The translations under genes were made by a program, and so were the position numbers. Source: Escherichia coli (GTDB taxonomy: Bacteria > Pseudomonadota > Gammaproteobacteria > Enterobacterales > Enterobacteriaceae). Taken from it: a stretch of DNA of 2,400 bases. Positions 1 through 2,400 of this stretch are shown one piece after another. The first letter of the stretch is position 1; each line of letters begins with the position of its first letter. The notes under the pieces are model-generated. The model was not told the DNA's origin and ran no database searches. It saw nothing but the letters and a program-made list of their open reading frames with translations. The DNA lies in NCBI RefSeq assembly GCF_003334255.1, contig NZ_QOWU01000135.1; one strand, given 5' to 3'.

Positions 1-22
1 AAAAACGAGTATTTTTAGTCAT
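1..22 (-). CDS. IS3-family transposase OrfA, N-terminal 7 codons only (MTKNTRF...), 3' part outside window
   Basis: ATG at 22-20 on the minus strand, preceded by AGAGG (minus strand, positions 35-31) at suitable spacing. The translation MTKNTRF is the characteristic start of IS629/IS1203-type OrfA. Only 22 nt are in the window, so the call rests on context. Confidence 0.5.
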
Positions 23-30
23 CCTGTTTA

Positions 31-35
31 CCTCT
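31..35 (-). promoter_or_regulatory. Shine-Dalgarno (AGAGG) for the IS3-family orfA
   Basis: AGAGG on the minus strand, 8 nt upstream of the ATG at 22-20. Confidence 0.45.
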
Positions 36-101
36 TTCTCAGGGAGTTTAGTCTCCAGGATTTCCGGGGCGGTTCAATCTGATATAGACGGACATCTAAG
101 T

Positions 102-527
102 ATGGAATTACAGGACTGGCGAAAAGAACCTCGTAAAAACTATTCGAATGAATTCAAACTTCGTATGGTGGAACTGGCATCACAACCTGGAGCTTGTGTT
201 GCACAGATTGCACGTGAAAATGGCGTCAATGATAATGTTATTTTCAAATGGCTCAGGCTCTGGCAGAACGAAGGGCGTGTTTCGCGGCGTCTTCCGGTAA
301 CGACCTCTTCTGACACTGGCGTTGAATTATTACCTGTAGAAATAACGCCGGATGAGCAGAAAGAACCTGTGGCGGCCATTGCGCCGTCTTTATCCACTTC
401 CACTCAGACCAGAGTCAGTGCCAGTTCCTGCAAGGTGGAATTCCGTCACGGTAACATGACGCTGGAAAATCCATCGCCAGAGCTGCTCACGGTGTTGATC
501 CGTGAACTGACCGGGAGGGGGCGATGA
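102..527 (+). CDS. tnpA: IS66-family TnpA (Orf1), small helix-turn-helix DNA-binding protein, 141 aa
   Basis: ORF track 102..527. The N-terminal segment NYSNEFKLRMVELASQPGACVAQIARENGVNDNVIFKWLRLW has the transposase-type HTH signature. It sits immediately upstream of tnpB and overlaps it by ATGA. The start at 102 is the first in-frame ATG but has a weak RBS; the frame stays open upstream, so the true start is uncertain. Confidence 0.85.
   Translation: MELQDWRKEPRKNYSNEFKLRMVELASQPGACVAQIARENGVNDNVIFKWLRLWQNEGRVSRRLPVTTSSDTGVELLPVEITPDEQKEPVAAIAPSLSTSTQTRVSASSCKVEFRHGNMTLENPSPELLTVLIRELTGRGR
514..518 (+). promoter_or_regulatory. Shine-Dalgarno (GGAGG within GGGAGGGGG) for tnpB, embedded in the 3' end of tnpA
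   Basis: GGAGG at 514-518, 5 nt upstream of the tnpB ATG at 524. Confidence 0.55.
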
Positions 528-874
528 TCTCGCTCCCATCAGACACTCGAATCTGGCTGGTTGCCGGCGTTACTGATATGCGTAAATCCTTCAACGGTCT
601 GGGTGAACAGGTACAACATGTGCTGGATGAGACCCCCTTCTCCGGTCACCTGTTCATCTTCCGTGGCCGACGGAGTGACATGATTAAAATCCTCTGGGCT
701 GATGCTGATGGTCTGTGCCTGTTCACCAAACGCCTGGAGGAAGGCCAGTTTATCTGGCCTGCGGTGCGTGACGGTAAGGTATCCATTACCCGCTCGCAGC
801 TGGCAATGCTCCTCGATAAGCTGGACTGGCGTCAGCCAAAAACATCCCGTCTTAACGCACTGACAATGTTGTAA
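524..874 (+). CDS. tnpB: IS66-family Orf2 / TnpB accessory protein, 116 aa
   Basis: ORF track 524..874. The translation MISLPSDTRIWLVAGVTDMRKSFNGLGEQVQ...IFRGRRSDMIKILWADADGLCLFTKRLE is the highly conserved IS66 Orf2 sequence. The ATG at 524-526 overlaps the tnpA TGA at 525-527, and a strong SD lies upstream. Confidence 0.9.
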   Translation: MISLPSDTRIWLVAGVTDMRKSFNGLGEQVQHVLDETPFSGHLFIFRGRRSDMIKILWADADGLCLFTKRLEEGQFIWPAVRDGKVSITRSQLAMLLDKLDWRQPKTSRLNALTML

Positions 875-904
875 AAATGTCATGGCCGGATTATAAAAAC
901 GGTC

Positions 905-2400
905 ATGAGTCGGAAATACCTCATTCGTATCACTGAGCTGGAAAGGCTGCTCTCTGAGCAGGCTGAAGCCCTCCGTCAGAAAGACCAGCAACTGAGTCTG
1001 GTTGAAGAGACGGAAGCCTTCCTGCGCTCTGCACTGACACGTGCCGAAGAAAAGATCGAAGAAGATGAACGGGAAATAGAACATCTGCGGGCTCAGATAG
1101 AAAAACTGCGCCGGATGCTGTTCGGTACCCGTTCTGAAAAACTGCGTCGTGAAGTTGAACTGGCTGAGGCTCTGCTGAAACAACGTGAACAGGACAGCGA
1201 TCGTTACAGTGGGCGGGAAGACGATCCTCAGGTTCCCCGCCAGTTGCGACAGTCGCGCCATCGTCGTCCGTTACCGGCACACCTTCCCCGTGAAATACAC
1301 CGCCTGGAGCCAGAAGAAAGCTGTTGCCCGGAGTGTGGCGGTGAGCTGGATTATCTGGGGGAAGTCAGCGCTGAACAGCTGGAACTGGTGAGCAGTGCCC
1401 TGAAAGTGATCCGCACAGAACGGGTAAAAAAAGCCTGTACAAAATGTGACTGTATTGTTGAAGCACCGGCGCCGTCCCGCCCGATAGAGCGTGGTATCGC
1501 GGGCCCCGGATTACTTGCCCGCGTGTTAACGGGAAAATACAGCGAACATCTGCCACTGTATCGTCAGAGTGAAATCTTTGCCCGCCAGGGTGTCGAACTG
1601 AGCCGGGCCTTACTCTCCAACTGGGTTGACGCGTGCTGCCAGTTAATGACACCGGTGAATGATGCCCTGTACCGTTATGTAATGAACACCCGCAAGGTTC
1701 ACACTGATGACACACCGGTAAAGGTACTGGCACCGGGTCAGAAAAAGGCGAAAACAGGGCGTATCTGGACGTATGTCCGGGATGATCGCAATGTGGGTTC
1801 GTCATCTCCTCCAGCGGTCTGGTTCGCGTACTCGCCGAACCGGCAGGGGAAACACCCGGAGCAACACCTCCGCCCCTTCCGGGGTATCCTGCAGGCGGAT
1901 GCGTTCACAGGTTACGACAGGTTGTTCAGTGCAGAACGTGAAGGTGGTGCACTGACAGAAGTTGCGTGCTGGGCCCATGCCCGGCGAAAAATCCACGATG
2001 TATACATCAGCAGCAAAAGTGCGACGGCAGAAGAAGCCCTGAAGCGAATCAGTGAACTGTACGCCATCGAGGATGAAATACGGGGATTACCGGAGTCAGA
2101 GCGTCTTGCCGTCAGGCAGCAGCGAAGCAAAGTGTTACTGACGTCGCTGCATGAATGGATGGTGGAGAAGAATGGTACGCTGTCGAAAAAATCCAGACTG
2201 GGCGAAGCGTTCAGCTATGTACTGAATCAGTGGGATGCCCTCTGTTATTACAGTGATGACGGTCTGGCGGAGGCGGATAATAATGCTGCGGAAAGAGCGC
2301 TTCGTGCAGTCTGTCTCGGAAAGAAAAACTCTTATGACCTTTGTCAAATATTGAGCCCAAAAAGACCTTACGCAGCTCCGGGAGCTTCGTTATATCGCGG
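905..2400 (+). CDS. tnpC: IS66-family transposase TnpC (DDE transposase), 3'-incomplete in window; the last ~23 codons diverge from the conserved family sequence
   Basis: Frame 2 is open from the ATG at 905 to the window end, and my own translation confirms it. The N-terminal region is a charged coiled coil (ELERLLSEQAEALRQKDQQL...IEHLRAQIEKLRRMLFGTRSEKL) containing the IS66 FGxxSEK motif. Candidate catalytic residues are D at 1706-1711 (HTDDTPV), D at 1898-1900 (ILQADAFTGY) and E at 2291-2293 (NNAAERALR). The start has no obvious SD. Confidence 0.85.
   Translation, partial: MSRKYLIRITELERLLSEQAEALRQKDQQLSLVEETEAFLRSALTRAEEKIEEDEREIEHLRAQIEKLRRMLFGTRSEKLRREVELAEALLKQREQDSDRYSGREDDPQVPRQLRQSRHRRPLPAHLPREIHRLEPEESCCPECGGELDYLGEVSAEQLELVSSALKVIRTERVKKACTKCDCIVEAPAPSRPIERGIAGPGLLARVLTGKYSEHLPLYRQSEIFARQGVELSRALLSNWVDACCQLMTPVNDALYRYVMNTRKVHTDDTPVKVLAPGQKKAKTGRIWTYVRDDRNVGSSSPPAVWFAYSPNRQGKHPEQHLRPFRGILQADAFTGYDRLFSAEREGGALTEVACWAHARRKIHDVYISSKSATAEEALKRISELYAIEDEIRGLPESERLAVRQQRSKVLLTSLHEWMVEKNGTLSKKSRLGEAFSYVLNQWDALCYYSDDGLAEADNNAAERALRAVCLGKKNSYDLCQILSPKRPYAAPGASLYR
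1322..1453 (+). other. Cys-rich zinc-ribbon motif within TnpC (CCPECGG ... CTKCDC)
   Basis: Translated cysteines at codons starting 1322, 1325 and 1334 (SCCPECGG) and at 1436, 1445 and 1451 (CTKCDC), spaced as in the IS66 transposase zinc-finger domain. Confidence 0.6.

What the first reader, a model, noticed from the sequence alone, without database searches (positions are those of the whole stretch)
2325..2400. The tnpC reading frame departs from the conserved IS66 transposase sequence after the catalytic Glu: possible second junction
After RAVCLG, IS66-family transposases, as I recall them, continue with a strongly conserved R/KKNWLF(A/F)GS segment. Here the translation reads GKKNSYDLCQILSPKRPYAAPGAS, and the nucleotide sequence from about 2330 becomes AT-richer and unlike the preceding coding DNA. 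This suggests the transposase C-terminus is interrupted by an insertion, deletion or recombination joint near 2329-2332. Together with the left-end disruption, this copy would then be a decayed IS66 remnant.
Basis: partly seen in the sequence, partly recalled or inferred. Interest (0 to 1): 0.5.

Follow-up and report, generated by a model that had tools for sequence, protein, structure and literature searches.

The report
ISEc45 inserted into ISEc23 transposase gene
The reading frame changes at base 2330 because a second, RNA-guided mobile element (ISEc45, IS110 family) has inserted into the transposase gene of the first (ISEc23, IS66 family); this is an ordinary, already annotated nested insertion, although this element lineage seems to aim specifically at that conserved spot in IS66 transposase genes.

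Summary
ISEc23 tnpC runs normally up to Asn475 (…AERALRAVCLGKKN). After the dinucleotide CT at 2329-2330, intact copies continue TTTATGTTCTTTGG (FMFFGS). The window instead continues with the last 70 nt of the right end of ISEc45, a 1,444-bp IS110-family element whose 377-aa DEDD transposase is on the opposite strand.

In plasmids 100% identical to window 77-2400, the missing 62 tnpC codons resume immediately after the element, with only the CT shared. The event is therefore a simple insertion.

ISEc45 has an IS1111-type layout: 10-bp subterminal inverted repeats, a short 5' end and a 251-nt 3' non-coding end. That end encodes a conserved, covarying two-loop RNA. Its loop segments match the flanking target and change when the target changes.

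Relatives with 56-71% identical transposases from other phyla mostly sit antisense at the same G(R/K)KN|(W/F/Y) codons of IS66 genes that are only 35-57% identical. This points to bridge-RNA/seekRNA-guided targeting of IS66 transposase genes.

The ISEc23 copy is defective: tnpC is split and its left 60 bp are lost to an IS3-family element. The feature itself is known and annotated; the lineage-wide preference for IS66 is a modest extra.

The parts
1..76 (-). Left end of an IS3-family element. The reverse complement reads TGAACCGCCCCGG...AGGTAAACAGG then ATGACTAAAAATACTCG = MTKNTR. It abuts the truncated ISEc23.
   Evidence: Read directly. A near-identical sequence at L003 1501-1577 lies at the start of an annotated IS3 family transposase. 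Hits to window 1-76 always fall in IS3-family annotations.
77..2330 (+). ISEc23 (IS66 family) remnant lacking its first 60 bp, including the left inverted repeat GTAAGCG. It holds tnpA 102-527, tnpB 524-874 and the tnpC 5' part from 905.
   Evidence: ORFs. RefSeq annotation of identical DNA. The intact left end is seen in L001, L002 and L003.
905..2330 (+). tnpC codons 1-475 of 537. It ends after ...LGKKN, 12 residues after E463 of the NNAAERALR motif.
   Evidence: On the intact protein, Pfam DDE_Tnp_IS66 covers 196-486 and DDE_Tnp_IS66_C covers 494-530.
2329..2330 (.). Crossover ('core') dinucleotide CT (AG in ISEc45 orientation). It is present once in the empty site and at both junctions of the inserted element.
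   Evidence: Empty site GAAAAA-CT-TTATG. Filled site GAAAAA-CT-CTTATGACC ... CATACCAT-CT-TTATG.
2331..2400 (-). Last 70 nt of the right end of ISEc45 (IS110 family), positions 1375-1444 of the 1,444-bp element. The transposase gene and the predicted guide RNA lie beyond the window end.
   Evidence: 100% identity of window 77-2400 to L001 3001-5324 (2324/2324). RefSeq annotates an 'IS110-like element ISEc45 family transposase' on the minus strand just downstream. Element ends were defined.
2333..2342 (.). Right-hand subterminal inverted repeat TATGACCTTT. Its partner is at positions 5-14 of the left end.
   Evidence: GGTCATAAG / ATGRKATGACC are conserved in relatives.
2342..2347 (-). TTGACA, the candidate -35 box of the promoter that would form when the element ends are joined in a circle: TTGACA, 17 nt, then TGnTATGAC from the left end.
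   Evidence: The sequence was assembled by hand. TTGACA is kept at the same distance from the end in 8 of 10 relatives. The function is inferred, not tested.
2374..2386 (.). 13-nt palindrome AGCTCCGGGAGCT in the trailing part of the right end. It has no assigned role and is not conserved in relatives.
   Evidence: The terminator scan found nothing.

Best explanation
Position 2330/2331 is the right-end junction of an ISEc45 insertion into the tnpC gene of an ISEc23 copy. ISEc45 is an IS110-family element with an IS1111-type layout. It has a 59-nt 5' end, a 377-aa DEDD transposase on the window's minus strand, and a 251-nt 3' non-coding end with 10-bp subterminal inverted repeats.

Inferred mechanism, by analogy with IS621, ISEc11 and ISEc21. 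The element excises as a circle. Joining the ends creates a promoter whose -35 box, TTGACA, lies at window 2342-2347. A structured RNA of about 165 nt from the 3' end binds the transposase.

One internal loop of this RNA pairs with the target. [quoted passage not shown] A second loop carries AUAAGAG, which matches the element's own right end plus core. Recombination at the shared dinucleotide inserts the element without a duplication and always antisense to tnpC.

The target is the DNA encoding the conserved G(R/K)KN|(W/F/Y)(L/M/V)F block of IS66 transposases. The insertion removes the last 62 residues of TnpC, including the IS66 C-terminal domain. Together with the lost left inverted repeat, this leaves the ISEc23 copy non-autonomous.

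What is shown: the junction, the precise insertion, the element's identity and domains, the conserved structured RNA, the guide-target concordance and the recurrence of the site. What is inferred: the circle, the promoter, RNA expression and RNA guidance.
For: Junction and precise insertion:
- Window 77-2400 is 100% identical to L001, where the element occupies 5255-6698 and tnpC resumes at 6701. The empty site is seen in intact ISEc23.

Identity of the element:
- RefSeq names it ISEc45.
- Pfam finds DEDD_Tnp_IS110 and Transposase_20.
- NCBIfam NF033542 'IS110 family RNA-guided transposase' scores 278 bits against a cutoff of 140.
- There is distant similarity to the solved IS621 transposase, E 6.6e-10.

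Site specificity:
- 625 E. coli records hold at least 80% of ISEc45, and 532 hold it together with IS66 flanks.
- All 9 E. coli copies examined are antisense in tnpC of ISEc23, ISEc22, ISEc43 or unnamed IS66 members, at the same codon boundary.
- Relatives with 56-71% identical transposases (Nitrosomonas, Trabulsiella, Planctomycetota, sphingomonads, Ralstonia) share the ends. They interrupt IS66 tnpC genes that are 35-57% identical to ISEc23 at residue 472-475.

RNA:
- The conserved 3'-end structure has 21 pairs, 12 with compensatory changes. 88.6% of cells are paired, against 34-56% when partners are slid, and 0 of 500 shuffles reach the observed covariation.

Guides:
- The left-target segment is CAUAUAG, CACGUAG, CAGCCAG or CAGGUAG, at flanks CATAAAG, CACGTAG, (C/G)AGCCAG and GAGGTAG respectively.
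- In total 68 of 77 positions are identical, and 9 of 20,000 shuffles of the pairing reach that.
- The right-target segment pairs at 6-8 of 8 positions when G-U is allowed.
- L011 carries the same element with no IS66 similarity detected in its flanks, but at a matching 12-nt site.

Literature:
- NCR position, subterminal repeats and guide order (top-strand match 5' of bottom-strand match) fit what is published for IS1111-type elements (PMC11187229; PMC11208160).
Against: - The window ends 70 nt into the element. The rest of ISEc45, its RNA and the displaced tnpC 3' fragment are inferred from identical loci, and the window's exact source was not found in the two collections searched.
- The window-type guide CAUAUAG matches its ISEc23 target at only 6 of 7 positions. 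One E. coli copy (L049) shows 4 of 7.
- The right-donor guide could not be identified convincingly.
- Rfam has no matching family.
- The candidate -10 box TATGAC lacks the usual final T, and the promoter scan cannot be run on a hypothetical circle junction.
- At 377 aa the transposase is longer than the 330-350 aa quoted for IS1111-family members. Its subgroup placement was not tested.
- The loci compared are related by descent, so the shuffle statistics overstate independence.
- Nothing about RNA expression or activity was tested.
Confidence: 0.9

Rival explanations
1. In the window's own genome, the sequence after 2330 is only a fragment of the ISEc45 right end, joined to tnpC by a later deletion or recombination. 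Neither the whole element nor the tnpC 3' part would then follow.
For: The window stops at 2400, so nothing downstream is seen. This copy already has one other rearrangement (the IS3 end at 76/77). The exact source is not in the collections searched. Truncated ISEc45 pieces and ISEc45 copies hit by further IS do exist (L039, L042 and L047; partial hits).
Against: The junction itself is the canonical insertion junction. All 2,324 bases from 77 to 2400 are identical to loci with a complete element. All 9 E. coli copies examined have both tnpC halves.
Confidence: 0.06
2. ISEc45 landed in tnpC by chance once, and the composite then spread clonally or horizontally. The apparent site specificity is common descent rather than RNA-guided targeting.
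For: Many E. coli copies are nearly identical composites found in different contexts. These could have moved as units or by homologous recombination between IS66 copies.
Against: The same codon boundary is occupied in different IS66 family members (ISEc22, ISEc23, ISEc43). It is also occupied in IS66 genes only 35-57% identical from other phyla, by elements with 56-71% identical transposases. The loop segment changes with the flank. One copy sits at a matching site with no IS66 similarity detected in its flanks (L011).
Confidence: 0.03
3. KKNSYDLCQIL... is a genuine alternative C-terminus of a functional IS66-family transposase.
For: The frame stays open through the end of the window.
Against: The DNA after 2330 is the conserved end of an unrelated element found at 56-100% relatedness in many bacteria. 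The read-through adds only 47 unrelated residues before a stop. It replaces the conserved FMFFGS...DDE_Tnp_IS66_C region. RefSeq marks these genes as incomplete pseudogenes.
Confidence: 0.01

Closest known systems
ISEc45 (ISfinder name; RefSeq 'IS110-like element ISEc45 family transposase')
   Same: The window's 2331-2400 is identical to the right end of annotated ISEc45 copies. The transposase sequence matches the ISEc45 entry listed in the source data of PMC11187229.
   Different: Nothing differs; it is this element. No paper in the searchable library describes its target or its RNA.
ISEc11, ISKpn4, ISPa11 (IS1111-family elements with a seekRNA; Siddiquee et al. 2024, PMC11187229)
   Same: The long non-coding region lies downstream of the transposase gene. 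There are subterminal inverted repeats with short terminal extensions. No target duplication is made. The ends are placed to form a junction promoter. The top-strand-matching RNA segment lies 5' of the bottom-strand-matching one.
   Different: The target is different (an IS66 transposase gene). The transposase is 377 aa rather than 330-350 aa. In the part of the paper's identity table shown by the lookup, ISEc45 is about 14-25% identical to the other listed transposases. No experiments exist for ISEc45.
[quoted passage not shown]
   Same: The strategy is the same: an RNA-guided IS aimed at a conserved stretch within another IS family's transposase gene.
   Different: ISEc21 has its non-coding region upstream and the opposite guide order. 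Its victim family is IS3 rather than IS66.
IS621 bridge RNA recombinase (Durrant et al. 2024, PMC11208160; structures 8WT6-8WT9)
   Same: It has a DEDD plus Transposase_20 recombinase. Its two-loop RNA has left and right guides that include a core dinucleotide shared by target and donor. The core is CT on one strand here and CT in IS621.
   Different: Protein similarity is only distant (E 6.6e-10 over about 95 residues). [quoted passage not shown]
IS4321/IS5075 and the IS1111-attC group (IS1111-family elements that target the Tn21-family inverted repeats or integron attC sites)
   Same: They are site- and orientation-specific and insert into sequences carried by other mobile elements. This rests on reference titles cited in PMC11208160 and on established knowledge.
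   Different: Those targets are non-coding repeats of transposons or integrons, not a transposase coding sequence.

Membership tests
IS110 family insertion sequence (DEDD, RNA-guided) | The transposase has an N-terminal DEDD/RuvC-like domain (PF01548) and a C-terminal Transposase_20 domain (PF02371). | tested here: met
   Pfam PF01548 at 10-158 (E 3.6e-15) and PF02371 at 227-298 (E 6.9e-23). NCBIfam NF033542 scores 278 bits against a cutoff of 140. A GLVPGEYSSG motif is present.
IS110 family insertion sequence (DEDD, RNA-guided) | Site- and orientation-specific insertion with no target duplication beyond a shared core. | tested here: met
   Comparison of empty and filled sites shows only CT shared. 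The site and the antisense orientation are the same in 9 E. coli copies and in most of the more distant relatives whose junctions could be read.
IS110 family insertion sequence (DEDD, RNA-guided) | The non-coding end encodes a structured RNA whose loop segments match both target strands around the core. | tested here: met
   The structure has 12 of 21 pairs covarying. The left-target guide covaries with the flank (68/77 identities, 9/20,000 shuffles). The right-target guide pairs at 6-8 of 8 positions.
IS110 family insertion sequence (DEDD, RNA-guided) | The RNA also carries segments matching both donor ends. | tested here: inconclusive
   AUAAGAG, equal to the right end plus core, is invariant next to the GGGG/CCCC hairpin. 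The segment expected to pair with the left end is at best a 4-5 nt UCAU and does not include the core (inspection).
IS110 family insertion sequence (DEDD, RNA-guided) | A circular intermediate with a junction promoter, and an RNA bound to the transposase and required for transposition. | not testable with these tools
   Only the sequence is suggestive: TTGACA, 17 nt, then TGnTATGAC across the joined ends. TTGACA is conserved in 8 of 10 relatives.
IS1111 subgroup or family | Subterminal inverted repeats of 7-17 bp with short terminal extensions. | tested here: met
   There is a perfect 10-bp repeat TATGACCTTT / AAAGGTCATA, 4 nt from the left tip and 2 nt from the right tip.
IS1111 subgroup or family | The long non-coding region lies downstream of the transposase gene, and the top-strand match lies 5' of the bottom-strand match. 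| tested here: met
   The 5' end is 59 nt and the 3' end is 251 nt. The RNA order is right-target guide then left-target guide. The criteria come from PMC11187229.
IS1111 subgroup or family | The transposase clusters with IS1111 relatives across its full length and has the typical length of 330-350 aa. | tested here: inconclusive
   At 377 aa the length is outside the quoted range. No phylogeny was made. In the part of the paper's identity table shown by the lookup, ISEc45 is only about 14-25% identical to the other listed transposases.
IS66 family (ISEc23), the interrupted host element | tnpA-tnpB-tnpC organisation with an IS66 DDE transposase. | tested here: met
   ORFs at 102-527, 524-874 and from 905. 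RefSeq names them. The intact TnpC matches NF033517 at 452 bits and the Pfam IS66 domains.
IS66 family (ISEc23), the interrupted host element | An intact, autonomous copy: both terminal inverted repeats (GTAAGCG...) and a full-length tnpC. | tested here: not met
   The left 60 bp, including the left inverted repeat, are absent. tnpC is cut after codon 475 of 537.
Any curated Rfam RNA family | A covariance-model match in the ISEc45 non-coding ends. | tested here: not met
   There were no matches at E <= 1 over L001 5150-6800 on either strand.

The most novel reading that the evidence does not exclude
The ISEc45 clade may be an old lineage of bridge-RNA/seekRNA elements, spanning several phyla, that specialises in one conserved codon block, G(R/K)KN|(W/F/Y), of IS66-family transposase genes. 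Its left-target guide would drift to follow the codon choices of local IS66 variants: CAGCCAG for NWL, CAGGUAG for NYL, CACGUAG for NYV and CAUAUAG for NF/YM. That would be a dedicated 'parasite of a parasite' which disables IS66 copies while using them as safe, multi-copy, horizontally mobile landing pads. No paper in the searchable library reports this.
Probability: 0.55. Interest if true: 0.45.

Novelty: already known. Interest (0 to 1): 0.3.

Why it matters
For annotating this window, the result settles the question. The odd tnpC tail is not a new transposase variant. It is read-through into a nested, catalogued IS, and the ISEc23 copy is dead.

More broadly, the locus is a clean natural example of bridge-RNA/seekRNA targeting. 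It offers a readable empty site, a filled site and a guide, and natural retargeting can be seen between E. coli variants and across phyla.

If the IS66 specialisation holds up, it adds a second documented case, after ISEc21 and IS3, of an RNA-guided IS aimed at another IS family's transposase gene. That bears on how mobile elements find harmless insertion sites and compete with each other. It also offers naturally diversified guide-target pairs for an IS1111-type recombinase.

Tried and rejected
- Rfam search of the element and its flanks found no family.
- The promoter and terminator scan of the right end found nothing. The palindrome at 2374-2386 is therefore left unassigned, and it is not conserved in relatives.
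- A naive k-mer search for target or donor matches in the non-coding end gave only short ambiguous hits. The guides became clear only after aligning relatives.
- I tried to find the donor left-end guide by analogy with the target loop. No segment including the core fits, so this stays unresolved.
- L039 and L042 looked like a second target site in tnpC, at residue ~357. Inspection showed copies truncated inside the RNA region, so I rejected that reading.
- Relatives below about 52% transposase identity do not share the end motifs used for the search (ATGRKATGACC / GTCATAAG). I did not analyse them further.
- Searches for the window's exact source found no record with the IS3|ISEc23 junction in one piece, using the whole window against plasmids and the first 200 bases against E. 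coli genomes.
- Literature searches for ISEc45, ISEc23+IS110 and IS66+IS1111 returned only inventories, with nothing on this target.
- I did not use the protein-database searches, structure prediction or the metagenome scan. The DNA evidence was already decisive.
Full report
**What is in the window.**
- Positions 102-527, 524-874 and 905 onward are the tnpA, tnpB and tnpC genes of an IS66-family element. RefSeq names identical DNA ISEc23.
- An intact ISEc23 TnpC (537 aa, locus L003) continues ...LGKKNFMFFGSDHGGERG....
- At DNA level the intact gene is GAAAGAAAAAC TTTATGTTCTTTGG. The window is GAAAGAAAAAC TCTTATGACCTTTGTCAAATATTG.
- The last tnpC residue is N475, 12 residues after E463 of the AERALR motif, and 62 residues are lost.
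- On the intact protein, Pfam places DDE_Tnp_IS66 at 196-486 and the IS66 C-terminal element at 494-530. The cut falls at the very end of the catalytic domain and removes the C-terminal domain.

**What the foreign sequence is.**
- Window 77-2400 is 100% identical (2324/2324) to several E. coli plasmids.
- In one of them (L001), the sequence after the break continues into a gene annotated 'IS110-like element ISEc45 family transposase' on the opposite strand. It is followed by a 'transposase domain-containing protein, missing N-terminus'.
- Reading the DNA shows the inserted block at L001 5255-6698 (1,444 bp). Its far junction...AAAGGTCATACCAT-CT-TTATGTTCTTTGGCAGCG, resumes tnpC exactly where the intact gene would continue.
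- Only CT is shared by the two junctions and the empty site. This is a precise insertion with a 2-nt crossover core and no real duplication.
- The encoded 377-aa protein has DEDD_Tnp_IS110 and Transposase_20 domains. It passes NCBI's 'IS110 family RNA-guided transposase' model at 278 bits against a cutoff of 140. It is distantly similar to the solved IS621 transposase.
- Window 2331-2400 is thus the reverse complement of the last 70 nt of the ISEc45 right end.

**Anatomy of ISEc45**.
- In its own orientation the element has a 59-nt 5' end, the transposase gene, and a 251-nt 3' non-coding end.
- A perfect 10-bp subterminal inverted repeat (TATGACCTTT / AAAGGTCATA) lies 4 nt from the left tip and 2 nt from the right tip. 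The right copy is window 2333-2342.
- Joining the ends would give TTGACA, 17 nt, then TGG-TATGAC. The TTGACA is window 2342-2347 on the minus strand.
- Junction promoters of this kind are documented for ISEc11, ISEc21 and IS621. Here the promoter is inferred only. TTGACA is kept at the same distance from the end in 8 of 10 relatives.
- Downstream non-coding region, subterminal repeats and terminal extensions are the published hallmarks of IS1111-type members. The 377-aa length is above the 330-350 aa quoted for that group, and I made no phylogeny.

**Is the site chance or choice?**
- In complete E. coli genomes, 625 records hold at least 80% of ISEc45, and 532 hold it together with about 300 bp of IS66 flank on each side.
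- I examined nine copies in detail. All lie antisense in an IS66-family tnpC at the same codon boundary: two, and seven more.
- The host elements differ. They are ISEc23 (KKN|FMFF), ISEc22 (RKN|YLFF), ISEc43 (KKH|YVFF) and unnamed members (KKN|YVFF).
- A scan of one genome per species found 39 loci encoding relatives.
- Those with 56-71% identical transposases share the end motifs ATGRKATGACC and TTGACAA.GGTCATAAG. They come from Nitrosomonas, Trabulsiella, Planctomycetota, sphingomonads, a Rhodobacteraceae MAG, Ralstonia and Acidobacteria.
- Where flanks are readable, these relatives split IS66 tnpC genes that are only 35-57% identical to ISEc23, at residues 472-475, again antisense.
- The reconstructed empty sites translate to ...DNN.AE.A.R....G(R/K)KNWLF.G....
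- One copy (L011) has flanks with no detectable IS66 similarity, yet they carry a matching 12-nt sequence.
- This pattern is hard to explain by one lucky insertion spreading clonally.

**The RNA.**
- Aligning the 3' ends of ten relatives plus a second E. coli variant shows a conserved core of about 165 nt.
- RNAalifold gives a closing helix, two short helices (…/GAGG), an inner hairpin, and an invariant GGGG/CCCC hairpin.
- Of the 21 pairs, 12 show compensatory changes. 88.6% of cells are paired, against 34-56% when partners are slid, and no shuffle of 500 reaches the observed covariation.
- Between the CCUC/GAGG helix and the inner hairpin is an internal loop.
  - Its 5' side is (C/A)AAGAAUU. 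[quoted passage not shown]
  - Its 3' side is identical to the left flank plus core, and it varies with that flank:

| Element(s) | Left-target guide | Left flank + core |
|---|---|---|
| Six relatives | CAGCCAG | (C/G)AGCC-AG |
| L013 | CAGGUAG | GAGGT-AG |
| One E. coli variant | CACGUAG | CACGT-AG |
| The window's variant | CAUAUAG | CATAA-AG |

- Overall, 68 of 77 positions agree, and 9 of 20,000 re-pairings reach that. The loci are related by descent, so this number overstates independence.
- After the GGGG/CCCC hairpin comes an invariant AUAAGAG, identical to the element's right end plus core.
- This is the layout described for bridge RNAs and seekRNAs. The top-strand match lies 5' of the bottom-strand match, as reported for IS1111-type elements and opposite to IS621 and ISEc21.
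- The UU facing the core explains why right junctions read either AG or AA while left junctions read AG.
- I could not identify a convincing guide for the left donor end. Rfam has no family for this RNA.
- The RNA core maps to L001 5500-5334, which would be window 2410-2576. It starts 10 nt beyond the window end, so none of it is in the window itself.

**Consequences for the ISEc23 copy.**
- tnpC is split, and the read-through product would add 47 unrelated residues and stop at window-equivalent 2473.
- On the left, window 1-76 is the end of an IS3-family element. Its reverse complement reads TGAACCGCCCCGG… followed by ATG ACT AAA AAT ACT CG (compare).
- That IS3-family end abuts position 77. 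The first 60 bp of ISEc23, with the GTAAGCG inverted repeat seen in L001, L002 and L003, are missing.

**Caveats.**
- The exact source of the window was not found: no record carries the IS3|ISEc23 junction in one piece. Everything beyond base 2400 is inferred from loci identical over 77-2400.
- The window-type guide has one mismatch to its ISEc23 target. One E. coli copy (L049) has a guide that fits its flank poorly, at 4 of 7. This may reflect tolerance of mismatches or later exchange between copies.
- No expression or activity data exist for ISEc45 in the searchable literature.

**Comparison and novelty.**
- The feature is a copy of a catalogued IS inside another catalogued IS, and RefSeq annotates it as such. 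As a finding it is already known and ordinary.
- The closest mechanistic models are ISEc11, ISKpn4 and ISPa11 (IS1111-type seekRNA) and IS621 (bridge RNA).
- The closest biological precedent is ISEc21, which targets a conserved DDE-codon stretch of IS3-family transposase genes.
- I did not find it reported that the ISEc45 clade does the equivalent to IS66 family genes across phyla, with guides tracking local codon usage. I rate this as a modestly interesting extension of a known principle.

Noticed in passing
window 1-77: An IS3-family element end (reverse complement TGAACCGCCCCGG...; orfA starts MTKNTR at 22->1) abuts ISEc23 at position 77. The first 60 bp of ISEc23, including its left inverted repeat, are missing. 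No record in the E. coli or plasmid collections has this junction in one piece.
   Followed up: partly
L046, L047, L008, L013 right junctions: The right junction reads ...CATAAG-AA-TT... while the left junction of the same copy reads ...-AG-ATG.... This occurs where the host Asn codon is AAT. It fits a guide with UU opposite the core, which pairs with AA or, by wobble, AG. It would mean the two junctions keep different core bases after recombination with a mismatched core.
   Followed up: partly
L049 (NC_022370.1, E. coli PMV-1): This ISEc45 copy has the CACGUAG guide variant but sits at a CATAA-AG flank, matching only 4 of 7. It may be an off-target insertion, or a later exchange between ISEc45 or IS66 copies.
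   Followed up: no
L047 (NZ_CP022086.2, E. coli O104:H4): Triple nesting: an IS3-family element is inserted inside the ISEc45 3' non-coding end, and that ISEc45 is itself inside an IS66-family tnpC. The element span is 2,757 bp instead of 1,444.
   Followed up: no
L011 (Planctomycetota MAG JAQCBR010000008.1), junctions at 1006 and 2468: A full-length relative whose flanks show no detectable IS66 similarity. The flanks still contain GAAGAA-CT-GGCTGA, which matches its guides (left-target guide 7/7). This suggests recognition of the DNA sequence rather than of an IS66 context.
   Followed up: partly
L004 (MAG 'Collinsella sp.' JAIJJM010000012.1): A contig assigned to an actinobacterial MAG ends in a transposase 100% identical to E. 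coli ISEc45. This is probably a binning or contamination artefact, or a very recent transfer.
   Followed up: no
L039 and L042 (Novosphingobium), about 2640-2670: These relatives are truncated inside the predicted RNA, just after the GAGGCAGCC helix, and are followed by other DNA and an IS66 tnpC fragment on the same strand. They are remnants, not a second target site.
   Followed up: yes
window 2331-2346 against the intact ISEc23 sequence: The ISEc45 right tip CTTATGACCTTTG resembles the displaced tnpC sequence TTATGTTCTTTGG. As a result, BLAST alignments to intact ISEc23 overrun the true junction by 13-16 bases. This looks like chance, because relatives in other IS66 hosts show no such similarity.
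   Followed up: yes
window 524-527: The tnpA stop and the tnpB start overlap as ATGA. This is the usual IS66 arrangement, suggestive of translational coupling.
   Followed up: no
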